Shown here: in pieces, positions 4,165 to 60,300 of the stretch
Position numbering within the stretch: position 1 is the first letter of the stretch
Layout of the letters: every line of letters starts with the position of its first letter
From: Thermoproteota archaeon
Lineage (GTDB): Archaea; Thermoproteota; Thermoprotei_A; Sulfolobales; Ignisphaeraceae
Assembly (NCBI GenBank): GCA_013154235.1
Contig: JAADCV010000100.1
Coordinates: 1 to 63,166, forward strand
Direction: 5' to 3'
Length of the DNA stretch: 63,166 nt
The notes under the pieces: generated by a model
Database searches by the model: none
Told to the model about the DNA's origin: nothing
What the model saw: only the letters and a program-made list of their open reading frames with translations
Program-made: the position numbers and the translations under genes

Positions 4165-6276
4165 ATGCTAGAGCTCAGCAACTCCTGGGAAAAGCTAAGG
4201 AAGTGCAAGCGCATCGCAGCATTAGCTGGCCAGCCCAACGTCGGCAAATCAACGCTCTTCACGAGGATAACGGGAGAGATAGCCCACGTGGGAAACTTCC
4301 CCGGAACAACCGTCGAGATAAGCGTGGGGATCGCGCATGTAGATGGAGACGAAATCTGCGTAATCGATCTCCCTGGAACCTACGGTCTATCAGCCTCGAC
4401 TGAAGAGGAGCGTGTCGCTAAGAGAATCCTTCTTAGCGGTCTCCCTCAGGTGACTATAGTGGTGGTCGACGGTATCAGCATCGAGAGAACGCTCTATCTA
4501 GCTATCCAGATTCTGGAAATGTTCCCACGTGTAGTCGTAGCGCTCAACAAGTGGGATGTGCTTCACAAGAAGGGGGTTCATATCAATATCGAGAAGCTCG
4601 CTAGGTACCTAGGGTCCCCGGTTATACCTGTATCCGCCATAACTGGCGAAGGGGTTAGGGCTCTCCTCTTAGAAGCTCTAAAGGAGATGAATAGGGTTCC
4701 CCGGAAGCCTCTTGAGGTAGATTATGGTCCTCTAGAGAGGTTCGTCAGGGAGCTCGAGGACGTTGTTAGCAAGCTAAATCTCTACCCTTCTGCGAGCCCT
4801 AGATGGATTGCTATAGCGATACTGGAGGGAGACGAGGATGTTGCTAACGATTTGCGTAGAGCTAGCGAGAATCTGTATAGAGAGGTTATTGCAATTGTTG
4901 AGAGAGCTAGAAAGGAACTTGGCGCGAACCTACCCGAGGTCATCGCTAGACAGCGCTACGCATTGGCGGAGAGAATCGTTAGGGATTGCGTTGTTAGAGT
5001 CGAGGTTAAGGAGAGCGCGTTTCCAGCTATAGACAGAGCTTTTCTCAACCCTGTTATAGGTCCGATCCTATCGGTTGCGCTTCTAGCTACAGTATTCTTC
5101 GCGGTGTTCTCAATAAACACAGGCTACCCCCTAGTGTTGATACTTAGACACGTTGGTGCATCGAGTGCAGCTGAAGCTCTGGAGAGCTATAGCTTATCTG
5201 GACTCGTAGGAGAGGCGTTCCGCATCCTAAGCGCGTACACAGCTAGCTCGCTGAAACACGTATGCGGCTCAGCGTGCTCAAACCTGATAGCGTACGGTGT
5301 CGTAGGCGGTGTAGGGGTAGTAGTTAGCTTTCTACCTCTAGTCTTCACAATAATGGTCGTGCTAGCTGCCCTCGAGGACTCTGGCCTAGGCCCTAGAATG
5401 GCTTCATCGCTACACAGCCTCTTCAGCGCCTTCGGGTTATCGGGACGCGCTGTCTACCCTATGCTAACAGCGTTTGGATGCAATGTTCCTGCCGTGCTAG
5501 CGTCTAGGGCTGCCATAGATCCCGTGGAGAGAGTTGAGATAGCCATGAGCATAGCGTTCATTCCATGCCAAGCAAGGCTCGTTGTTCTGGCTGCGTTCGT
5601 AACGTTCATATTCTCTTCGTCACCATCGCTCCAGGCAGTAGCAATGGTATCTGTCCTCCTGGGAGGCGTCTTGCTGTACCTTGCGACAGCTAAGCTCGTA
5701 AGAGTGCTGCATCGCGCATCGCCATCTCCAGAGCTCCTCCTAGAGATACCACCGATACACAGACCCTCGTTGAGGGTGATATGGTGGAACTCGTGGGAGC
5801 AAACAAAGCACTTCCTAAAGAAAGCAGGTGTTCTAATATTTGCGCTAAGCGTGGTCTCGTGGATACTCCTCCACTTCGGCTCTATGGGATACGTCGGCGA
5901 TTTGATAGAGAGGAGCTTCGCTGCGAATCTAGGGAAATTCCTAGCGCCACTCTTTGCCACGATATACGGGTTACCCCCATCTTCAGCGTGGAAAATGGGG
6001 TTCGCCACGATCGTAGGCTTCTTCGCTAAGGAGGGTATCCTCGCAGTCTTCGCGCAGCTAGGGAAGGGAAGCATAGCTGCAGCCATAGGAATGAACTCAA
6101 GGCAAGCGTTTGCAGCTCTACTCTTCTTTATGTATTACCTACCATGTCTAGCTACAGCGGTAGTGATGCACCAAGAGCTTGGGAGCATTAAAAAGACTGT
6201 TGCAGCTGTAGCCTACATGATTGGGATTGCTCTAGCTATCTCAGCTGCAGCCTACGCAGTACTTAGGTTTCTATAG
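4165..6276 (+). CDS. feoB: Ferrous iron transporter FeoB
   Basis: G-domain motifs GQPNVGKSTLF, DLPGTY, NKWD followed by a polytopic membrane domain. ATG 4165 is about 35 nt downstream of the TATA-like box. Confidence 0.9.
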   Translation: MLELSNSWEKLRKCKRIAALAGQPNVGKSTLFTRITGEIAHVGNFPGTTVEISVGIAHVDGDEICVIDLPGTYGLSASTEEERVAKRILLSGLPQVTIVVVDGISIERTLYLAIQILEMFPRVVVALNKWDVLHKKGVHINIEKLARYLGSPVIPVSAITGEGVRALLLEALKEMNRVPRKPLEVDYGPLERFVRELEDVVSKLNLYPSASPRWIAIAILEGDEDVANDLRRASENLYREVIAIVERARKELGANLPEVIARQRYALAERIVRDCVVRVEVKESAFPAIDRAFLNPVIGPILSVALLATVFFAVFSINTGYPLVLILRHVGASSAAEALESYSLSGLVGEAFRILSAYTASSLKHVCGSACSNLIAYGVVGGVGVVVSFLPLVFTIMVVLAALEDSGLGPRMASSLHSLFSAFGLSGRAVYPMLTAFGCNVPAVLASRAAIDPVERVEIAMSIAFIPCQARLVVLAAFVTFIFSSSPSLQAVAMVSVLLGGVLLYLATAKLVRVLHRASPSPELLLEIPPIHRPSLRVIWWNSWEQTKHFLKKAGVLIFALSVVSWILLHFGSMGYVGDLIERSFAANLGKFLAPLFATIYGLPPSSAWKMGFATIVGFFAKEGILAVFAQLGKGSIAAAIGMNSRQAFAALLFFMYYLPCLATAVVMHQELGSIKKTVAAVAYMIGIALAISAAAYAVLRFL

Positions 6277-6639
6277 AGATGACTTTCTCTTCAACATCTC
6301 CTCTAGCTCCTTTATCCTCTCCTCCACGCTTCTAAGCTCCTCTTGAAGCTCCTTCAGATCCTCTTCTAGAGCCTTCTTGTACTCCTTCAGCATCTCTAGC
6401 TCCTCCTCTGGAGTTGGGGGCGGAGGAGGCGGTCCGTAGTACATTGGCGGAGGGTAGTACGCAGGATACGGGTAGTAGGGTTGCTGAGGCGCTTGGTACT
6501 GCTGCGGCTGCGACTGCTGTGAGGGTTGCTGTGGATACTGCTGCGGATACTGCGGAGGGTACTGGGGGTAAGGTGGTGGGGGAGGTGGCGGAGGAGGCAT
6601 CCAGTACCTAAACCTTCTCCACCATCCAAACCATGCCAC
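6271..6639 (-). CDS. Low-complexity protein: Trp/Arg N-terminus, Pro9 plus P/Q/Y tract, C-terminal coiled coil (DUF5320-like)
   Basis: GTG start preceded by GGTGA-N6. MAWFGWWRRFRYWMPPPPPPPPPYPQYPPQY... then EEELEMLKEYKKALEEDLKELQEELRSVEERIKELEEML. Confidence 0.6.
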   Translation of the reverse strand: MAWFGWWRRFRYWMPPPPPPPPPYPQYPPQYPQQYPQQPSQQSQPQQYQAPQQPYYPYPAYYPPPMYYGPPPPPPTPEEELEMLKEYKKALEEDLKELQEELRSVEERIKELEEMLKRKSSL

Positions 6640-6650
6640 GCTCCATCACC

Positions 6651-6887
6651 TCACTTAGGTACTTCTACTCTAGCACTCTCTAGAGTCTTTAGGGCTGTCT
6701 CAAAGGCTCTCCTCCATGTTTCTATCACAGCTCTATAGAGCTCTATCGTCACCGCGTAGTAGTATGGCACTAGCATCCACTGCATCGCCACGTACATCAT
6801 TGCCATTGGATCGTAAGGCGGCGGCGCTAGATATGGGTAGTAGGGGTATGGGTATGGCGGGTAGGGCGCGTAGTATGGGTAGCTCAC
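6651..6887 (-). CDS. Low-complexity protein: Tyr/Pro-rich N-terminus plus aromatic helical C-terminal half
   Basis: GTG start 4 nt after the upstream stop, GGTGG 7 nt upstream. MSYPYYAPYPPYPYPYYPYLAPPPYDP... Confidence 0.5.
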   Translation of the reverse strand: MSYPYYAPYPPYPYPYYPYLAPPPYDPMAMMYVAMQWMLVPYYYAVTIELYRAVIETWRRAFETALKTLESARVEVPK

Positions 6888-6891
6888 GGTC

Positions 6892-7164
6892 TTACCACCA
6901 TGGGTACGGGTAGTAGGGATACGGTGGATAGTACGGTGCTCTTAGCGGAGGTAGCCAGGGATAGGGGTAGTAGCTCCATCTAGCTACCCATCCTGGGGCC
7001 CCGAATAGCCACCAGCACGCTCCCCTACCGTAGAGCCATCCCGGCCTCATCCACGGTGGTAGGTGGCTCCAGGGACCTCTTCCTGGCCATGGTCCACTCC
7101 ATCCCCATCTGTATCCTCTTCCCCATCCTCCTCTCCAGCCCCATCCGAAGGGTATCCACGCCAT
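6892..7164 (-). CDS. Low-complexity protein: Trp/Gly/Arg-rich N-terminus, Tyr/Pro-rich C-terminus (DUF5320-like N-terminus)
   Basis: ATG 7164 preceded by GGTGA-N5. MAWIPFGWGWRGGWGRGYRWGW...YYPPYPYYPYPWW. The ORF-track start at 7275 would overlap the DUF134 gene and is rejected. Confidence 0.55.
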   Translation of the reverse strand: MAWIPFGWGWRGGWGRGYRWGWSGPWPGRGPWSHLPPWMRPGWLYGRGACWWLFGAPGWVARWSYYPYPWLPPLRAPYYPPYPYYPYPWW

Positions 7165-7197
7165 TTCTCTCACCGTTTCTGTGCTACTGCTCAGAAA

Positions 7198-7205
7198 CTT
7201 ATATG
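7198..7205 (-). promoter_or_regulatory. TATA-like box (CATATAAG on minus strand) upstream of the low-complexity ORFs
   Basis: AAAAACATATAAGTT in the 76-nt spacer, about 34 nt upstream of ATG 7164. Confidence 0.35.
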
Positions 7206-7240
7206 TTTTTCTGTCATGAATCCTAAGCAGTTTCACAGAA

Positions 7241-7591
7241 TCATTTCTCGCGAGACTGAATCGAGGGAATGACAATGGGCCTCATCTCTACAAGAGCTTG
7301 CACAAGCTTCTTGCGGGCGCTATCAAGCATTCTCCAAAGCGTTCCTCTAGAAACGTTCATTCTTCTCGCTGCCTCCTCCTGAGTCAATCCCTCTAGATAC
7401 ACGAGCCTAAGGGCTTCAAGTTCATCGGGCATTATGTACACAGGCTCCTTTTGAATTGGTTTTCCACTACTGTCTATCGGTATGAAAGTGGCGCCACCGA
7501 TCTCGAACCATATGAACCTAGGCTTAGGTCTTCTGCCTGGTCCTTGCCTCCCCCAGCACCACCTCCATGGTGGCCCCCTGGCCTCTCCCAA
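7241..7591 (-). CDS. DUF134-family putative DNA-binding protein (sigma-70 region-4-like HTH)
   Basis: GRRPKPRFIWFE..F.P.. then DELEALRLVYLEGLTQEEAARRMNVSRGTLWRMLDSARKK. TTG start; W/R/G-rich N-terminal extension. Confidence 0.75.
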   Translation of the reverse strand: MGEARGPPWRWCWGRQGPGRRPKPRFIWFEIGGATFIPIDSSGKPIQKEPVYIMPDELEALRLVYLEGLTQEEAARRMNVSRGTLWRMLDSARKKLVQALVEMRPIVIPSIQSREK

Positions 7592-7608: not shown

Positions 7609-8490
7609 CTAGGTCTGCTGACGCGCTCTTATGTACTCCCTACCCCTATACTTAACTATGGTTAGGGACCCCCTCTCTAAGTACCTTCGCAGAACCTCCA
7701 TAGCCTTATCCCCATGTTCGCGCTTGAGAAGCGATAGTGCTAGGTCTAGGGGTACTGGGTGCAGCTTCGCTATCTCTAAGAGGCTTTCTATAGTGCTAGC
7801 TCTAGCGAGAACCTCGTCTATCTCCGCCAGAGGTAGCAAGATAACTCGGTGCTTCCCGAGGTACATCGATAGCCTCTCCGCGAAGATCCTCAGTCTATCG
7901 ACTCTAGGCACCCTAACCCACTTCTCGGCTGGAGGCCTAATCGGGGCGTTGATGTACACTACGTATGGCTCCACCTTTCTGAGGGCCTCAGCTAGAAGAT
8001 CAGCATGCCAAGAACCATCGTTTACACCATCGACTAGCACCGTCTCTATAGATAGGATGCCGCTAATCTCCTTGGATAGCTCTTCGAGGCCGCTGATAAT
8101 GGCGCTGATCCTTATAGCGTTATCAGGTCTGTTGACTCTGCGAAAGACGCTTGGCGTAGCAGCGTCGAGCTTCATGGAAACGAAGTCGAATACCGTAGAG
8201 TCCTCCCTAACATCGCGTCTCCACACCAGCGAGGCATTGGATATTAGCGCTACCCGATACCCAAACTCTCTCGAGACTAGAGTAGCCGCCTTACCTAGAA
8301 GGCTGTAGAGGGTGGGCTCACCGTCACCTACAAACGTTAGGTAGTCTACCCTATCAACATTCTCTAGAGCCCGCTCAACAACTCTAGCAACTTCCTCTGG
8401 CTCGCAGTACCTACGCCTAAGTATGCTAGTCCTAATGGTTCTACCTAGCTGACAGTATATGCACGAGTAGCTGCAGGTCTTCATAGGCAC
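7609..8490 (-). CDS. Radical SAM protein (COG0731-like); true N-terminus probably lies upstream of the called start
   Basis: CSYSCIYC (CxxxCxxC) at residues 6-13 of the called ORF. The conserved YGPVLSRRLGFSLGI segment is encoded in frame upstream (to 8562) without a canonical start. Confidence 0.8.
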   Translation of the reverse strand: MPMKTCSYSCIYCQLGRTIRTSILRRRYCEPEEVARVVERALENVDRVDYLTFVGDGEPTLYSLLGKAATLVSREFGYRVALISNASLVWRRDVREDSTVFDFVSMKLDAATPSVFRRVNRPDNAIRISAIISGLEELSKEISGILSIETVLVDGVNDGSWHADLLAEALRKVEPYVVYINAPIRPPAEKWVRVPRVDRLRIFAERLSMYLGKHRVILLPLAEIDEVLARASTIESLLEIAKLHPVPLDLALSLLKREHGDKAMEVLRRYLERGSLTIVKYRGREYIRARQQT

Positions 8491-8816
8491 AACGCTTATA
8501 CCGAGAGAGAAGCCTAGGCGCCTTGATAAAACGGGTCCGTAAGCCCTAGGTATATGTGCCGTGGTTTCACCTTGCGCTAGAGAGCTAGGGATGCAGAAAA
8601 AGGTTTAGCGCTTGACATCTACTAGACACCGTTGAGCGCGGGAATCATGCCTCATCACGCACCAGATAGTTCGCTCTCACAAAGTATCGAGGGGAACTCA
8701 GCGGATCCCCGCACCATCTCAATGCTTGCTGCTACGAGCAGCAGTGCCTTACTATGTAGAACAAGGTGCTGGTCGCATATACCCAAGCGGTTCCTCGAGA
8801 CCGCGGGCTACAGCTT

Positions 8817-9152
8817 CTAGCTCTTGATCCCTATCAGCATCCTGATACTCTTAGCGTCGCCGCGCTTCACGAGCTCAAGTAGTTCGTACTCGAGCCCTGG
8901 CCTACCTAGCTTTATGGCTATCGGCTTCAGAATTAGTGAGACTAGGGCGAAGTCTGCAGACGCCTCGTCTCCCCCATACCTCTGCTTTATGAACTCGTAC
9001 GCCTCCTTGGGGTTCTCTATTAGTAGCTCCACGAATTTCTTGCCGTACTTAGCCATACACACGTTGTCGAGCATACGGAGGAAGCCTGGTATCCTGCTCT
9101 CAGCCCACTGCCTTACGTACCTTACAAGCTCCTCGATCATGGTTATAGCCAC
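8817..9152 (-). CDS. Hypothetical protein, 111 aa
   Basis: ATG-initiated ORF with coding-like composition; no recognisable motif. Confidence 0.5.
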   Translation of the reverse strand: MAITMIEELVRYVRQWAESRIPGFLRMLDNVCMAKYGKKFVELLIENPKEAYEFIKQRYGGDEASADFALVSLILKPIAIKLGRPGLEYELLELVKRGDAKSIRMLIGIKS

Positions 9153-9407
9153 TCGTGTACACTATTCCTCTATGTCTCCATAGATACTTAAACGACATGA
9201 GTACAATAAATAAAGTTTGTTCTCACTGCATGACGTCCACGATGTGAACCAGTACAGGTATAGATGGTACTACTCGCATTCAACGTGCGATACGTTTACT
9301 ATAAGCTACGTGCCTACTGGAACACTAGCTTCATCGATACTGAGTCAAGTACCTTAATTATCTGTGAAAGCTGCCTGACAGATGAGCGCATCCAGAGGTG
9401 AGCATCT

Positions 9408-10112
9408 GTGTACATGCTGAAGATGATACACGAGTTCGAGAAGGTCGAGAGGAGGAAGCCTATAGACGGCACATACATAGTGCTCGTAGGTCTCTTCGTT
9501 GGCTGTCTAGTAAGCGCGAACTTCATAGCGATAAAGCTATGTAATATATTCGGCCTAGTAGTTCCAGCTGGAGTAATAGCGTACTCAATAACGTTCACGG
9601 TAACCGACATCATAAGCGACGTCTACGGCAGGAAAGCCGCTAGCTACGCCGTGTGGGCTGGATTCGCTGCAAACATAGTTATGGTGGCTATGGTGTTTGG
9701 AGGCTGGCTTCTACCACCTCTATCACCAGCCTTCCAGAGCAAGTACCAGGTGCTACTATCGACCCCTAGGATAGTAGCTGCTAGCATGGTCGCATACCTC
9801 CTAAGCCAGAATCACGACGTTCTAGCATTCCACTTCTGGAAGGCCCTCACAAAGGGTAGGCACCTATGGCTTAGAAACAACGCCTCTACAGCTGTTAGCC
9901 AGCTCATAGATACGTGCACCTTCATAACGCTAGCGTTCTACGGAGTCGTGCCGAACTCAGTGCTGCTAAACATGATCCTCGGCCAGTACCTCATTAAGCT
10001 GCTGATAGCGATCTGCGATACTCCATTCGTGTACCTAGGAGTGAAGCTGATAAGCGGGAGGAACGTCTCGTTTAAGGAGATTGCTCTTCGGAGCCCCTCC
10101 GTAACCTCCTAA
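9408..10112 (+). CDS. Queuosine/preQ0 precursor transporter (YhhQ/DUF165 family)
   Basis: VPAGVIAYSITFTVTDIISDVYGRK..A...VWAGF plus 6 TM segments. Start could be GTG 9408 or ATG 9414/9423. Confidence 0.75.
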   Translation: MYMLKMIHEFEKVERRKPIDGTYIVLVGLFVGCLVSANFIAIKLCNIFGLVVPAGVIAYSITFTVTDIISDVYGRKAASYAVWAGFAANIVMVAMVFGGWLLPPLSPAFQSKYQVLLSTPRIVAASMVAYLLSQNHDVLAFHFWKALTKGRHLWLRNNASTAVSQLIDTCTFITLAFYGVVPNSVLLNMILGQYLIKLLIAICDTPFVYLGVKLISGRNVSFKEIALRSPSVTS

Positions 10113-43901: not shown

Positions 43902-44002
43902 TGAAGTAAATCACGTGCCCAGCTGCAGCCATTAGACGAACGTCCATTATCTAAAGCCGCTCAGCATATCAACCTATCCTTGCAACCCCTAATCCGAGGT
44001 GA

Positions 44003-45391
44003 ATGGATACGGCAAGCGTAGTGAGCAAGATACGTGGATCAGAGGTTGAGTGGATAGACCTGCACTTCACCGATCTTGCCGGGTACCTTAGGCACGTAAC
44101 TATTCATGCATCGCTCGTAACTGAGGATGCCATTAAGAGAGGGCTGGGAAAGCTCGATGGAAGTAGCGTGAAGGGGTTTAGCGATATACACGAGAGCGAC
44201 CTTGTACTAAGACCTCTTGAAGAGACCTTCGCGTTAATTCCCTGGAGCAAAGGGCTTGCCAGATTCATATGTGCTGTTCACTCACCCGATGGATCCAGAT
44301 TCCCTAGAGACCCTCGGTGGATAGCAGAGAGAGCTGAGCAGTATCTCGCTGAGCAAGGACTTAGAGCTCTCGTAGCAGCAGAGCTCGAGTTCTTCATATT
44401 CGACTCAGTAAAGGTCTCTATCCAGCCGACAAAGCAGTGCTACGAGATAGTATCTAGTGAGATCGAGGGAACTAACTTCTTCAACAGGGTTAAGGAAGGA
44501 TACTACGTGCCTACGCCACACGATAAGTACCTAGATCTAAGGATGGAGATCTGCGACCACCTAAGGAAGTACTTTGGCATACCCACAACAGTCGCTCATC
44601 ACGAGGTCGCCGCCGCTGGCCAAGCAGAGATAAATTACGAGGCTGACTCGCCAGCGCGCTCAGCTGATGCAGTTCAAACAATAAAGTTCGTTGTAAAGAA
44701 CGTTTCGTGGAAGCACGGGCTCACCGCAACATTCATGCCGAAACCCATTGCCGGAGACAATGGGAGCGGAATGCACGTCCACGTATCAATCTGGAGAGGC
44801 TCTGAGAACCTCTTCTACGATCCTAGCGATGAGTACGCCGAGCTAAGCCAATTCGCTAGATACTTCATAGGGGGACTCATAGAGCATGGCAGAGCGCTAT
44901 CAGCTATCGTTAGCCCTACGATAAACAGCTATAGAAGACTCATACCCGGGTACGAAGCACCGGTTTACCTCGTTTGGAGCCGCGCTAACAGGAGCGCAGC
45001 TATAAGAGTGCCCTACTACTTCAAGCGGGACGAACCCTCCAAGAAAAGAATTGAGTTTAGGCCTCCGGACCCCAGCGCTAACCCCTACCTAGCGTTTGCA
45101 GCTATAATCATGGCTGGAATGGACGGCGTTAAGAAAGCCATAGACCCTGGAAGCCCCATTGATGAGAACGTGTATAGACTAGATGATAGCGTTAGGAAAG
45201 CTATGGGCATAAGGACTGTTCCTAGATCACTTGAAGAAGCCCTAGACGAGCTTGAAAGCGATAACGAGTGGCTCAAGCCGGTGTTCCCCAGGGAGGTCAT
45301 AGAGACCTACATAGAGATGAAAAGACTCGAGTGCAAGAGATTTGCACAGGCGGTGAGCCCAATAGAGCTCTTCATGTACCTAGACGTGTAG
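44003..45391 (+). CDS. glnA: Glutamine synthetase type I
   Basis: 462 aa; ..KPIAGDNGSGMHVHVS.., ..NSYRRL.PGYEAP.., ..RIEFR.PD.SANPYLA motifs. Confidence 0.92.
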   Translation: MDTASVVSKIRGSEVEWIDLHFTDLAGYLRHVTIHASLVTEDAIKRGLGKLDGSSVKGFSDIHESDLVLRPLEETFALIPWSKGLARFICAVHSPDGSRFPRDPRWIAERAEQYLAEQGLRALVAAELEFFIFDSVKVSIQPTKQCYEIVSSEIEGTNFFNRVKEGYYVPTPHDKYLDLRMEICDHLRKYFGIPTTVAHHEVAAAGQAEINYEADSPARSADAVQTIKFVVKNVSWKHGLTATFMPKPIAGDNGSGMHVHVSIWRGSENLFYDPSDEYAELSQFARYFIGGLIEHGRALSAIVSPTINSYRRLIPGYEAPVYLVWSRANRSAAIRVPYYFKRDEPSKKRIEFRPPDPSANPYLAFAAIIMAGMDGVKKAIDPGSPIDENVYRLDDSVRKAMGIRTVPRSLEEALDELESDNEWLKPVFPREVIETYIEMKRLECKRFAQAVSPIELFMYLDV

Positions 45392-46298: not shown

Positions 46299-46305
46299 TT
46301 TATAT
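46299..46305 (+). promoter_or_regulatory. TATA-like box TTTATAT upstream of the TFS paralogue
   Basis: About 50 nt upstream of ACG 46354. Predicts a transcript that includes GGTGA (46343-46347). Confidence 0.35.
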
Positions 46306-46380
46306 CCGTGCATAGCTCTAGCTATTTCGAGGAGCCGCGGTAGGTGATGAGCCACGTTCTTCTGTCCGAAGTGCGGTTCA

Positions 46381-46683
46381 GTGATGAGGAGCGTAAAGGG
46401 GAAGCTCGTATGCCCACGCTGCGGGTTTACACGTGATGCAAGCCCTAAGGACCTGGCGTCGATGAGAAAGGTGATCGTGTTCGAGCGAAGAATAGAGGCT
46501 AAGATAATCACCGTAGGCTTACCTCCAGGAGCGATACTTAGAAGCGATGTAACGTGCCCACGCTGCGGGCACAAAGGCGTGTATTACTGGCGTAGACAGC
46601 GCAGCAGTGCAGAAAGCTCGGATCTTATAGAAAGGGTCTGGAAGTGTCCCTCCTGCGGCCATGAATGGGTCGAAATAGAGTAG
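46381..46683 (+). CDS. TFS/TFIIS-type zinc-ribbon protein, second paralogue (N-terminal Zn ribbon extends upstream of the called start)
   Basis: C-terminal CPRCGH..VYYW...Q....KCPSCGHEW ribbon. In-frame upstream codons 46354-46380 encode TFFCPKCGS, the first CxxC of the N-terminal ribbon. Confidence 0.75.
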   Translation: MMRSVKGKLVCPRCGFTRDASPKDLASMRKVIVFERRIEAKIITVGLPPGAILRSDVTCPRCGHKGVYYWRRQRSSAESSDLIERVWKCPSCGHEWVEIE

Positions 46684-49123: not shown

Positions 49124-49728
49124 CCTTCTTCTGCATACTCTAGAAATCTCCTAATAGCTTCCTCGATACTGACCACAAGCTCTCCATCCTCGTTAAGAAG
49201 CCCGTACTCAAACGCTCTCCTAGCTACCTGGTGAGGCTCTAGCCCCGTAAGGATGCTGCAGGCTGCCGCGAAACGCCTTGTAGTATATGGCAGGGGGAGT
49301 CTTGAAGCCTTCTCTATGGCTTCCCCTAGCTCTCTAGCGTACTGAACTAGCGTATCCATATCGGTGTCAGCATATATCATGTCTCCTTTCACTGTTGCCG
49401 GAATACCGTTCGATCTGAGAACCGCTGCCAGAACGTCTAGAGGTACAGCTCTCTTAGCGAGCTTCGCAAGCTCATCAGCCTTAACGCCATGTTTAGGACT
49501 AGCACGGCTTCTCCTAACTAGGTTAATTATCTCCCTAAGCCTAAGTACGGTTCTCTGAACCTCAGGCTCGAACCCTATGACCCTAAACCTCAGTTTGCCT
49601 CCCCTAACCTCAGCAATAATGGTTGCATGCGAGGAAAGCTCCTCATCGATCCTCTCCAGAAGCTCTGTGCAAAAATCCTGAGAACCGCACTCTATATGGA
49701 CTACCTTCTCTACGATTCCTCTCTTCAA
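49120..49728 (-). CDS. Conserved archaeal hypothetical protein, 202 aa
   Basis: ATG ORF between csl4 and rpoL, 4-nt overlap with csl4. Position typical of the archaeal exosome/RNAP neighbourhood. Confidence 0.55.
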   Translation of the reverse strand: MKRGIVEKVVHIECGSQDFCTELLERIDEELSSHATIIAEVRGGKLRFRVIGFEPEVQRTVLRLREIINLVRRSRASPKHGVKADELAKLAKRAVPLDVLAAVLRSNGIPATVKGDMIYADTDMDTLVQYARELGEAIEKASRLPLPYTTRRFAAACSILTGLEPHQVARRAFEYGLLNEDGELVVSIEEAIRRFLEYAEEG

Positions 49729-50309
49729 CTCTTCTTCGAACCCCTCCTAGCGGTAACCATGTAGTCTATAGATATCTTGCGTGTCTCAACGTTTCCACAA
49801 GCACTGCAGATAAGCGTTCCATCTCGCTTAGCTAGCACTGCACCACACCTAGAGCAGTGCGCTAGTATCACACCCATTCTCGGCTCCTTCGTGCTCAGCA
49901 ACAGCGGTACATAGCTATTCACAACTCTAGCCCTAATCAAGTCACCTAGTTTTACTGCATCGTATATGGTCTCAAGGCGCTGATCGGAGATCTGCGATAT
50001 GTGTAGCAAGCCCGTTATGGGGTTCTTGAACGGTGCATAGATATCGAATCCTATCACTTTAACTATAGCTACATCCTCCTTCACAGCAGCGACAATCCCA
50101 ACAACCGCATCGCCCTGCTTAGGTAGCGCGCTCTTGCGGACAAGCGGTTTGACACTGACTCTCCTCGAAGCCATGTCGAACACGGGCTCTCCTATAATCG
50201 CAGCTCTAACAACACCCTTATCGTCAAGGTAGGTTCCTGGCCCCGGCATGAACTCTTCCTCGACGCATAAGGGTTCGCCTGGCATCACTATTCTCTTGCT
50301 CAGCGACAT
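49725..50309 (-). CDS. csl4: Exosome complex RNA-binding subunit Csl4
   Basis: N-terminal VMPGEPL..EEF.PG.GTY, central S1 domain, C-terminal Zn ribbon CSRCG....LICSACG. Confidence 0.85.
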   Translation of the reverse strand: MSLSKRIVMPGEPLCVEEEFMPGPGTYLDDKGVVRAAIIGEPVFDMASRRVSVKPLVRKSALPKQGDAVVGIVAAVKEDVAIVKVIGFDIYAPFKNPITGLLHISQISDQRLETIYDAVKLGDLIRARVVNSYVPLLLSTKEPRMGVILAHCSRCGAVLAKRDGTLICSACGNVETRKISIDYMVTARRGSKKS

Positions 50310-59967: not shown

Positions 59968-60300
59968 ATGCGGTTCTGCCCTAAGTGCGGATCAATAATG
60001 GTTGTGGATAGAAGCAAAGGCGTACTGAGATGCCCTAGGTGCGGCTACACTATGGATAGCAAGGGTGGGCTGGTGCTGTCAAAGTCTATAACCCACAGCG
60101 TTAAGGAGAAGACCGTTGTAGTGGATGCATCAACTGCGAGCGTGCCTCCGGGAGCCGTGCTGCTGAAGGGGGAGGTGCGCTGCCCTAAGTGTGGTCACGA
60201 TGAGGTGTATGCGTGGCAGATGCAGACCAGGGCTGCCGACGAGCCTCCGACAACGTTCTACAAGTGTGCCAAGTGCGGTCATACGTGGAGGGAGTACTGA
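59968..60300 (+). CDS. tfs: Transcription elongation/cleavage factor TFS
   Basis: MRFCPKCGSIM....LRCPRCG N-ribbon. C-ribbon CPKCGHDEVYAWQMQTRAADEPPTTFYKCAKCGHTW with intact acidic DE tip. Confidence 0.9.
   Translation: MRFCPKCGSIMVVDRSKGVLRCPRCGYTMDSKGGLVLSKSITHSVKEKTVVVDASTASVPPGAVLLKGEVRCPKCGHDEVYAWQMQTRAADEPPTTFYKCAKCGHTWREY

What the first reader, a model, noticed from the sequence alone, without database searches (positions are those of the whole stretch)
8488..8607. Radical SAM gene: conserved N-terminus is encoded but lacks a canonical start; GGTGA-N4-ACG sits where the start should be
The ORF caller starts the gene at GTG 8490 (MPMKTCSYSCIYC), five codons before the CxxxCxxC cluster. 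The frame stays open for 38 more codons upstream (stop TAA at 8607-8605). Those codons read ...TAHIPRAYGPVLSRRLGFSLGISVV. From memory, the GPVxSRRLGxSLGI motif they contain normally precedes the Cys cluster in this radical-SAM subfamily. There is no ATG, GTG or TTG anywhere in that stretch. The only initiation-like arrangement is GGTGA (8571-8567), 4 nt, then an in-frame ACG (8562-8560). That would give a product beginning (M)AHIPRAYGPV, a typical N-terminal length for the family. The TFS paralogue at 46354 shows the same arrangement. Possible explanations are genuine ACG initiation, C-to-U editing that creates AUG (as in plant organelles), a T-to-C substitution or assembly error, or an N-terminally truncated protein.
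Basis: partly seen in the sequence, partly recalled or inferred. Interest (0 to 1): 0.68.

Follow-up and report, generated by a model that had tools for sequence, protein, structure and literature searches.

The report
Conserved ACG start codons in an archaeon
Two genes of an uncultured heat-loving archaeon (a radical SAM enzyme and a transcription-factor-S paralogue) encode essential, conserved N-termini with no ATG/GTG/TTG, and each has a ribosome-binding site placed before an in-frame ACG that related lineages also keep, so ACG most likely serves as a natural, weak start codon, which has not been described for archaea.

Summary
On the minus strand the radical SAM frame is open from TAA 8607-8605 to the called starts (GTG 8490, ATG 8484). 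It encodes the family's invariant N-terminal motif and contains no ATG, GTG or TTG. AGGTGA (8572-8567) lies 4 nt before an in-frame ACG (8562-8560).

- The ACG is not an assembly error: two independent assemblies of about 99.8% identical strains carry it.
- The upstream codons are under purifying selection (pN/pS 0.11-0.34 at near-saturated pS). They form a confidently modelled beta hairpin.
- Two sister lineages also have GGTG-N7-ACG in frame.
- Another lineage has only CTG/ATC.
- About 75 distant family members almost all have a canonical start there.
- The TFS paralogue (46354) is the cleaner case. Only four codons (GCC ACG TTC TTC) separate a double TGA from the first zinc-ribbon cysteine. 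ACG sits where orthologues have ATG (MFFCPKCG), after AGGTGAT-N5. Three lineages and nine assemblies conserve it.

The best explanation is Shine-Dalgarno-guided initiation at ACG by the initiator tRNA, giving hard-wired low expression (confidence about 0.68). Truncation, frameshifting and sequence error are disfavoured. C-to-U editing cannot be tested here. I rate it a new variant of a known kind, non-canonical start codons.

The parts
7609..8562 (-). Radical SAM gene as proposed here: ACG start to stop (317 codons plus stop). Annotated versions start at 8490 (GTG, 293 aa) or 8484 (ATG, 291 aa).
   Evidence: ORF and translation. PF04055 51 bits, cut-off 29.5. Homologues cover 96-98% of the ACG-started product. 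AF2 model pLDDT 93.3.
8560..8562 (-). Proposed ACG initiation codon of the radical SAM gene.
   Evidence: In frame, 7 codons before the Y of YGPV. Identical in GCA_054002435.1 and Logan SRR33956862 assemblies. In-frame ACG after GGTG-N7 in L001/L002/L007 and L003.
8567..8572 (-). Shine-Dalgarno sequence AGGTGA, 4 nt before the ACG (5 nt counted from GGTG).
   Evidence: This spacing class precedes 20/81 first starts against 19/811 internal start-like codons in the window.
8485..8550 (-). 22 codons (PRAYGPVLSRRLGFSLGISVVP) encoding the invariant family motif. They lie upstream of every canonical start.
   Evidence: pN/pS 0.11-0.34 with pS 0.6-1.0 among five lineages. Invariant columns. Beta strands at residues 6-13 and 17-23, pLDDT 84-91.
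8605..8607 (-). In-frame TAA that closes the frame upstream; 14 codons lie between it and the ACG.
8482..8490 (-). GTG 8490-8488 and ATG 8484-8482, the starts chosen by gene callers. Neither has a GGTG 3-8 nt upstream.
46354..46683 (+). TFS (transcription factor S) paralogue as proposed here: ACG start to stop (109 codons plus stop). Callers start it at ATG 46384 (99 aa), which loses the first CxxC of the N-terminal zinc ribbon.
   Evidence: With the extension it matches TIGR01384 TFS_arch at 71.7 bits (cut-off 64.75), model positions 2-100 of 101.
46354..46356 (+). Proposed ACG initiation codon of the TFS paralogue. It aligns with the ATG of orthologues that begin MFFCP[KR]CGS.
   Evidence: ACG is kept in the window strain relatives (L105, L106), the sister lineage (L093-L098) and the L099 lineage.
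46342..46348 (+). Shine-Dalgarno sequence AGGTGAT, 5 nt before the ACG. The ATG inside it (46347) is out of frame.
   Evidence: It matches the archaeal SD consensus GGAGGUGAU, as used in PMC6237735. The 25-nt block GTAGGTGATGAGCCACGTTCTTCTG is identical in the sister lineage, which is 72% identical at protein level.
46345..46350 (+). Two in-frame TGA stops, one codon (GCC) before the ACG. Only GCC, ACG, TTC and TTC lie before the first Cys codon.
46299..46305 (+). TTTATAT, a putative TATA box conserved in the sister lineage. It implies a leadered mRNA of roughly 25 nt that contains the SD (inferred).
   Evidence: Sequence read. The TSS position is inferred from the usual archaeal TATA-to-TSS distance and was not measured.

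Best explanation
Both genes are translated from an ACG codon. A Shine-Dalgarno sequence (AGGTGA / AGGTGAT, complementary to the 3' end of archaeal 16S rRNA) places the ACG in the 30S P site, where it is read by the initiator Met-tRNA with a C-A mismatch at the middle position. The products are full-length: (M)AHIPRAYGPVLSRRLG... for the radical SAM enzyme and (M)FFCPKCGS... for the TFS paralogue. Because a near-cognate start is inefficient, the arrangement probably fixes a low translation rate for these two proteins. Shown here: the N-terminal codons are translated (purifying selection, invariant residues, structured strands); no canonical start exists; ACG and the SD are conserved across lineages and assemblies; ACG is homologous to the orthologues' ATG. 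Inferred: initiation really occurs at ACG, with Met, and at low efficiency.
For: (1) No ATG, GTG or TTG lies between the upstream stop and the conserved motif in either gene. (2) The start-less codons are under purifying selection. For the rSAM gene, 22 codons give pN/pS 0.11-0.34 at pS 0.6-1.0 in all 10 pairs of five lineages. For the TFS paralogue, 9 codons show 5-6 synonymous against 1-3 non-synonymous changes. (3) These codons carry residues invariant in 50 homologues and a beta hairpin at pLDDT 84-91. The extension is also needed for the first CxxC of the TFS zinc ribbon and for a full-length TIGR01384 match. (4) In the TFS paralogue only GCC, ACG, TTC and TTC lie between a double stop and the first Cys codon, and ACG is the only near-cognate among them. 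Orthologues read ATG TTC TTC TGC with a homologous SD. (5) ACG is conserved in three TFS lineages and three rSAM lineages despite saturated synonymous divergence. In L003 the SD is spaced for the ACG and not for the downstream GTG, which occupies a conserved I/V position. (6) Independent assemblies rule out sequence error. (7) The SD spacing (GGTG-N5 and GGTG-N7) falls in the window's own start-site mode of 4-8 nt, a class enriched 10-fold at starts. A window-wide and 500-kb scan for SD-ACG-ORF returns only these genes plus two junk frames. (8) Base rate: of about 75 distant family loci, all but one have a canonical start before the motif. (9) ACG can initiate with Met in E. coli reporters (10.1101/063800), and near-cognate initiation peaks were seen in Haloferax ribosome profiling (PMC7261190).
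Against: There is no RNA or protein data, so initiation at ACG is inferred only. aIF1 is reported to discriminate against non-canonical codons in Sulfolobus (PMC4705826 and PMC6237735). The rSAM frame also holds in-frame ATA (8553-8551) and ATC (8592-8590). One rSAM lineage (L004 = the sister genome of L093) has ACA where the others have ACG, and would have to use CTG or ATC. L005 uses TTG, and L099 has an in-frame TTG six codons upstream of its ACG. ACG is therefore not universal in the clade. Only two genes in 63 kb show the arrangement, and no further case turned up in about 30 kb of syntenic comparison.
Confidence: 0.68

Rival explanations
1. The annotated short proteins are the real ones. 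Translation starts at the internal ATG or GTG (8484/8490; 46384), and the upstream codons are untranslated remnants or are conserved for another reason.
For: All pipelines called internal starts. ATG-to-ACG looks like a knock-out mutation.
Against: Changes in the upstream segments are almost all synonymous while synonymous sites are saturated. The segments hold family-invariant residues and a structured hairpin. The truncated TFS would lack half of its zinc ribbon. The internal starts have no SD, whereas the ACGs do. Callers disagree among themselves (275, 291, 300 and 302 aa in one 90% cluster).
Confidence: 0.08
2. Initiation is non-canonical but not at ACG. The rSAM gene would use ATA 8553-8551 or ATC 8592-8590.
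For: ATA and ATC are accepted table-11 starts. L004 has ATC at the position of the window's ATA, and L003 has GTG there.
Against: That position is a conserved I/V residue (GTT in L001 and L005, which cannot initiate). The SD would be 13 nt from ATA, outside the 4-8 nt mode. ATC 8592 has no SD. The TFS paralogue offers no alternative to ACG.
Confidence: 0.08
3. A ribosome starts at an out-of-frame AUG or GUG inside or near the SD (ATG 46347; GTG 8570; ATG 8618) and shifts frame into the gene.
For: ATG 46347 followed by a +1 shift would give MATFFC, reminiscent of the possible MMAMFFC reading in L100.
Against: The ATG-to-ACG distance is 7 nt in the window and in L093 but 8 nt in L099, so the required shift differs between lineages. 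The rSAM gene would need a -1 or +2 shift. In L001 the GTG is followed at once by TAG. No slippery heptamer is present and no homopolymer longer than T5. These ATG and GTG triplets are explained as part of the GGUGAU SD consensus. ATG 8618 is not conserved in relatives.
Confidence: 0.04
4. C-to-U editing of the mRNA converts ACG to AUG, as happens in plant organelles.
For: It would give the same conserved protein and explain strict retention of ACG. A C-to-U deaminase acting on tRNA (CDAT8, Methanopyrus) is known from my own knowledge.
Against: No archaeal mRNA editing is known and no editing factor was identified here. Two unrelated sites would need recognition. The L004 lineage (CTG/ATC) cannot be rescued by C-to-U editing to AUG.
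Confidence: 0.03
5. Sequencing or assembly error, with the true codon being ATG.
For: A single-base difference from ATG.
Against: The same ACG appears in the JGI contig, GCA_054002435.1 and Logan SRR33956862, strains with 6-28 differences elsewhere. It also appears in six assemblies of the sister TFS lineage and three assemblies of the L001 rSAM lineage.
Confidence: 0.01

Closest known systems
Conserved non-canonical start codons in bacteria (infC AUU/AUA; Deinococcus dnaA ATC and rpsL CTG; PMC2830850)
   Same: A near-cognate codon replaces AUG in specific genes and is conserved among relatives. It is recognised by comparing conserved N-termini and is mis-called by annotation pipelines. It is thought to set or regulate expression level.
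   Different: Here the codon is ACG, which is not among the table-11 starts (ATG, GTG, TTG, CTG, ATT, ATC, ATA). The organism is an archaeon with eukaryote-like factors (aIF1, aIF1A, aIF2). No proteomic confirmation exists.
ACG initiation in eukaryotes and their viruses (near-cognate starts read by Met-tRNAi; own knowledge, and PMC3542737 listed)
   Same: The same codon and presumably the same decoding: initiator tRNA, mismatch at the second position, low efficiency. The archaeal initiation factors are homologues of the eukaryotic ones.
   Different: Eukaryotic ACG starts are found by scanning and depend on Kozak context. Here positioning is by an SD, 4-5 nt upstream. In eukaryotes ACG usually gives an extra isoform, whereas here it would be the only route to a functional protein.
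ACG-to-AUG start-codon creation by C-to-U editing in plant organelles
   Same: A genomic ACG at the position of the start codon of a conserved protein.
   Different: It needs an editing machinery unknown in archaea. Not testable here and considered unlikely.
Experimental ACG initiation in E. coli reporters (10.1101/063800)
   Same: An SD-led mRNA with ACG in place of AUG yields full-length protein starting with Met at low level.
   Different: That is an artificial construct, whereas these are natural, evolutionarily retained sites.

Membership tests
Genes with a conserved non-canonical (near-cognate) start codon | Conserved, selected coding sequence lies upstream of the first canonical start, with no canonical start back to the previous in-frame stop | tested here: met
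   no start; pN/pS 0.11-0.34; TFS 5-6 synonymous against 1-3 non-synonymous changes; invariant residues.
Genes with a conserved non-canonical (near-cognate) start codon | The near-cognate codon sits at the position where orthologues have their start, and is retained among relatives | tested here: met
   TFS: ACG against ATG in MFFCP[KR]CGS orthologues, with a homologous SD; ACG in three lineages. rSAM: ACG in three of five lineages; the other two have CTG/ATC or TTG.
Genes with a conserved non-canonical (near-cognate) start codon | Ribosome-binding site at functional spacing | tested here: met
   GGTG-N5-ACG and GGTG-N7-ACG. The window's own starts have GGTG at 4-8 nt (mode 7), enriched 10-fold over internal codons.
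Genes with a conserved non-canonical (near-cognate) start codon | Experimentally determined N-terminus or initiation footprint at the codon | not testable with these tools
   No proteomic, Ribo-seq or transcript data are available.
Programmed ribosomal frameshift genes | An upstream out-of-frame ORF with a start, in a fixed frame relation, and a conserved shift site | tested here: not met
   The frame relation differs between lineages (7 against 8 nt), GTG is followed by TAG in L001, and there is no slippery motif.
Organellar-type ACG-to-AUG RNA editing | The transcript reads U where the genome reads C | not testable with these tools
   No RNA data are available.
Radical SAM superfamily (PF04055) | CxxxCxxC cluster motif and a Pfam match above the cut-off | tested here: met
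   C30, C34 and C37 are invariant. PF04055 scores 51.2 bits, cut-off 29.5. Fold matches to NifB, TYW1, PFL-AE and RlmN have TM 0.5-0.59. No specific subfamily model is passed.
Archaeal transcription factor S (TIGR01384) | A full-length match above the curated cut-off, including the N-terminal zinc ribbon | tested here: met
   71.7 bits against a 64.75 cut-off, model positions 2-100 of 101, obtained with the ACG-started product.
Archaeal transcription factor S (TIGR01384) | Acidic DE pair at the tip of the C-terminal ribbon (catalytic for transcript cleavage; own knowledge) | tested here: not met
   The paralogue has RSSAESSD where the window's canonical TFS has RAADEPP. It is not TFS4 either: NF047723 scores 34.9 bits, cut-off 120.

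The most novel reading that the evidence does not exclude
The genomic ACGs are converted to AUG in the mRNA by site-specific C-to-U editing. This would be the first mRNA editing, and the first editing-created start codons, in Archaea.
Probability: 0.03. Interest if true: 0.95.

Novelty: new variant of a known kind. Interest (0 to 1): 0.62.

Why it matters
Archaeal start codons are taken to be AUG, GUG and UUG, and every gene caller and genetic-code table 11 excludes ACG. Suppose ACG, positioned by a Shine-Dalgarno sequence, is a retained start codon in Desulfurococcales-like archaea. Three things would follow.

- Archaeal start-codon selection by aIF1/aIF2 would be more permissive than assumed, and closer to eukaryotic near-cognate initiation. 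This can be tested directly with existing Sulfolobus or Pyrococcus in-vitro systems.
- Weak start codons would be an evolved device for keeping certain proteins scarce. Here that includes a TFS paralogue with a damaged catalytic loop, plausibly an RNA-polymerase regulator.
- Annotation pipelines would systematically truncate such genes. One 90%-identity cluster has four different called starts, and some calls remove the Fe-S cysteine motif.

Tried and rejected
- **Syntenic stop-to-stop ORF comparison.** I compared the window with sister loci (L001, L003, L004, L005, L093; about 30 kb) to find more start-less conserved N-termini. Only the two known genes stood out. The DUF2067 gene (49746) looked similar but is explained by overlap with the end of the Csl4 gene and a TTG/TGA coupling site.
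- **Pattern scan.** I scanned about 500 kb of fetched loci for GGTG-N4-8-ACG followed by an ORF. It returned no new genes, only two junk frames in high-GC loci.
- **tRNA and Rfam scans of the window.** Nothing was found, so no initiator tRNA or RNA element could be examined.
- **Function of the rSAM gene.** The PDB sequence search gave only a weak RlmN match. The fold search gave generic radical SAM folds. NCBIfam gave no model above its cut-off. I considered a link to archaeosine (RaSEA), because the neighbouring gene is Vut_1, but could not test it.
- **Genome-collection scan.** It added one further copy of the L001 lineage (L007) but no new lineage.
- **Literature.** Seven searches found no report of a natural ACG start in archaea. 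This is absence within an open-access library, not proof.
- **Upstream out-of-frame ATG 8618 with a T5 run.** I considered an indel or slippage site and rejected it, because the arrangement is not conserved and independent assemblies agree.

Full report
**1. The observation**

On the minus strand the radical SAM reading frame is closed by TAA at 8607-8605 and stays open down to the starts chosen by gene callers (GTG 8490, ATG 8484). The intervening 38 codons read TFFCIPSSLAQGETTAHIPRAYGPVLSRRLGFSLGISVV. None of them is ATG, GTG or TTG.

The product belongs to the radical SAM superfamily (PF04055, 51 bits, cut-off 29.5). No specific NCBIfam model is passed.

**2. The start-less codons belong to the protein**

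A search with the ACG-started product found thousands of relatives. Typical members are 306-347 residues long and cover 96-98% of the query. They begin 2-10 residues before a motif FGPVxSRRLGxSLG(I/V).

- In an alignment of 50 homologues, G9, S13, R14, R15, L16, G17, S19 and G21 (numbered from the ACG) are invariant, as conserved as the C30/C34/C37 iron-sulfur triad.
- An AlphaFold model built on that alignment has mean pLDDT 93.3. It folds residues 6-13 and 17-23 into a beta hairpin at pLDDT 84-91.
- A protein started at Met27 would lack all of this.

**3. Relatives show the same oddity**

The four closest protein clusters are syntenic with the window: Vut_1, a small protein, the rSAM gene, then DUF134. 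Their upstream DNA shows the following.

| Lineage | Assemblies | What lies before the motif |
|---|---|---|
| L001 / L002 / L007 | three | no canonical start; GGTG-N7-ACG in frame |
| L003 | one | GGTG-N7-ACG, and a GTG three codons later at a position that is I or V in all lineages (ATA, GTT, GTG, ATC, GTT) |
| L004 / L008 | L004 and L008 are one contig (JALWBS010000114.1); same-cluster members come from other assemblies | ACA in place of ACG; only CTG and ATC as near-cognates (GGGGT-AACA-CTG) |
| L005 / L006 | two | an upstream TTG |

Among these five lineages the 22 codons from P-R-A/V-F/Y-G-P-V to V-V-P give pN/pS of 0.11-0.34. Synonymous differences are near saturation (pS 0.6-1.0) in all ten pairs. 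The segment is therefore translated in all of them.

As a base rate, I examined the 80 more distant family loci from metagenomes in which the motif could be located, about 75 loci. All but one have ATG, GTG or TTG in the open frame before the motif, usually ATG 4-14 codons upstream. The exception, L057, has only ATC and ATA.

**4. The TFS paralogue is the cleaner case**

At 46342-46365 the sequence reads AGG TGA TGA GCC ACG TTC TTC TGT CCG AAG TGC. After two in-frame stops only GCC, ACG, TTC and TTC precede the first cysteine of the N-terminal zinc ribbon. ACG is the only codon one base away from AUG.

- More distant orthologues begin MFFCP[KR]CGS. At the DNA level one of them reads GGAGATGATGGCG ATG TTC TTC TGC, against the window's AGGTGATGAGCC ACG TTC TTC TGT. 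ACG therefore occupies the homologous start position behind a homologous Shine-Dalgarno sequence.
- A sister lineage is 72% identical in protein and was assembled six times from different samples. It has the identical 25-nt block GTAGGTGATGAGCCACGTTCTTCTG. This is followed by six synonymous changes and one K-to-R change in FFCPKCGSV.
- A third lineage (L099) reads GGGGATGAGAAT ACG TAC TTC TGT.
- With the extension, the protein matches TIGR01384 (TFS_arch) at 71.7 bits (cut-off 64.75) over model positions 2-100 of 101. The called 99-residue version lacks half of the ribbon.

**5. Not an artefact**

The window is the first 63 kb of JGI contig Ga0072504_101417. Two independent assemblies (GCA_054002435.1 and Logan SRR33956862) come from strains that differ at 6-28 positions in the regions compared. 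They carry the same ACG at both genes.

**6. The ribosome-binding site**

In this window GGTG lies 4-8 nt (mode 7) before the first canonical start of 20 of 81 long ORFs. The same spacing class precedes only 19 of 811 internal in-frame ATG/GTG/TTG codons.

- The two ACGs have GGTG at 5 and 7 nt.
- The internal ATG and GTG chosen by callers have none.
- Of 31 GGTG-N4-8-ACG occurrences in the window, only these two open an ORF of at least 80 codons with no canonical start back to the previous stop.
- The same scan over 500 kb of fetched loci returns only relatives of these two genes plus two junk frames.
- AGGTGAT matches the archaeal consensus GGAGGUGAU, which lies 4 nt before the AUG of the Pyrococcus aEF1A mRNA used for initiation studies (PMC6237735). 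This also explains the out-of-frame ATG and GTG triplets inside the motif.

**7. Mechanism**

The best-supported reading is SD-guided initiation at ACG by the initiator Met-tRNA. It would give full-length proteins at reduced efficiency.

- Shown: translation of the upstream codons, absence of canonical starts, conservation and homology of ACG, and the SD spacing.
- Inferred: the initiation event itself, Met as the first residue, and low yield.
- Plausibility: E. coli reporters with ACG in place of AUG give Met-started protein at low level (10.1101/063800). About 30% of putative alternative initiation sites in Haloferax ribosome profiling were near-cognate codons (PMC7261190).
- Against: aIF1 is reported to discriminate against non-canonical codons (PMC4705826 and PMC6237735). 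ACG is not universal in the rSAM clade.

The pattern looks like start-codon turnover in genes that tolerate, or need, weak initiation: ACG in three lineages, CTG or ATC in one, TTG in one.

A rationale exists for the TFS paralogue. Its catalytic loop reads RSSAESSD where the window's canonical TFS has RAADEPP. It may therefore be a cleavage-deficient factor competing for RNA polymerase, whose level must stay low. This rationale is inference.

**8. Rivals**

- **Truncated proteins:** contradicted by selection, invariance and structure.
- **Other near-cognates (ATA 8553, ATC 8592):** they lack proper SD spacing, sit at a position where other lineages have the non-initiating GTT, and do not exist in the TFS gene.
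- **Frameshifting from out-of-frame AUG or GUG:** the frame relation changes between lineages (7 against 8 nt), GTG is followed by TAG in L001, and there is no slippery site.
- **Sequence error:** refuted.
- **C-to-U editing:** cannot be addressed without RNA data. It has no archaeal precedent and cannot rescue the CTG/ATC lineage.

**9. Comparison with what is known**

This resembles the conserved non-canonical starts of bacteria, such as infC AUU/AUA and Deinococcus dnaA ATC and rpsL CTG (PMC2830850). It also resembles eukaryotic and viral ACG initiation.

It differs in three ways. The codon is ACG, which is absent from table 11. The domain is Archaea. Positioning is by an SD rather than by scanning.

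Searches of the held literature found no natural ACG start in archaea. That is a limited search and not proof of novelty.

Only two genes in 63 kb show the feature, and syntenic comparison of about 30 kb found no more. This is gene-specific use and not a changed code.

**10. Verdict**

I rate it a new variant of a known kind, with confidence in ACG initiation of about 0.68 and interest of about 0.62. It is clearly testable by N-terminal proteomics, transcript reads and archaeal in-vitro initiation assays.

Noticed in passing
window 46354-46683 (+), compared with the canonical TFS at 59968-60300: The TFS paralogue has RSSAESSD where the canonical TFS has the acidic hairpin RAADEPP. One catalytic acid is lost and the loop is two residues longer. 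It passes TIGR01384 but not the TFS4 model, so it may be a cleavage-inactive RNA-polymerase regulator.
   Followed up: partly
window 6271-7281 (-): Three small ORFs of extreme composition lie downstream of the DUF134 gene: a P9 run with YPQ repeats, YPYPYY repeats, and GW/RG repeats. They are conserved at 52-77% identity in L001, L003, L004 and L005. Function unknown.
   Followed up: partly
L057 (Ga0272443_10004516), about 1470-1510: An unrelated member of the same radical SAM family also has no ATG, GTG or TTG before AYGPVPSRRLG. GAGGAGG is followed by in-frame ATC ATA. This is possibly another non-canonical start in a different organism.
   Followed up: no
P0005 cluster (L004 and contigs of GCA_054005835.1, GCA_054006855.1 and others): Members of one 90%-identity cluster of the sister-lineage rSAM gene were called at 275, 291, 300 and 302 residues by different pipelines. 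The 275-residue calls lack the CxxxCxxC motif. This lineage has ACA-CTG where the window has ACG.
   Followed up: partly
window 43983-44005 (+), glnA start: GAGGTGA abuts the ATG of glutamine synthetase with zero spacing. Either this is not used as an SD (leaderless mRNA?) or initiation here is unusual.
   Followed up: no
window 8817-10112, and L003/L005: Synteny is conserved: a divergent Vut_1 (PF02592, queuosine-precursor transporter family) gene, then a 107-113-residue protein, the rSAM gene and DUF134. This hints at a 7-deazaguanine or tRNA-modification role for the rSAM enzyme. Untested.
   Followed up: no
window 49720-49750 (-): The DUF2067 gene starts at a TTG that overlaps the TGA of the preceding Csl4 gene (AGTTGAAG). 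This is an ordinary coupling site that mimicked a start-less conserved N-terminus in the comparison.
   Followed up: yes
window 8591-8604 (-); L001 and L003 equivalents: A T-rich box (AAACCTTTTTCTGC; CCTTTTTGAA in L001; CTCTTTAGAG in L003) lies 34-38 nt before the ACG in three lineages. If it is the TATA box, the rSAM leader would be only about 10-14 nt and would begin at the SD.
   Followed up: no
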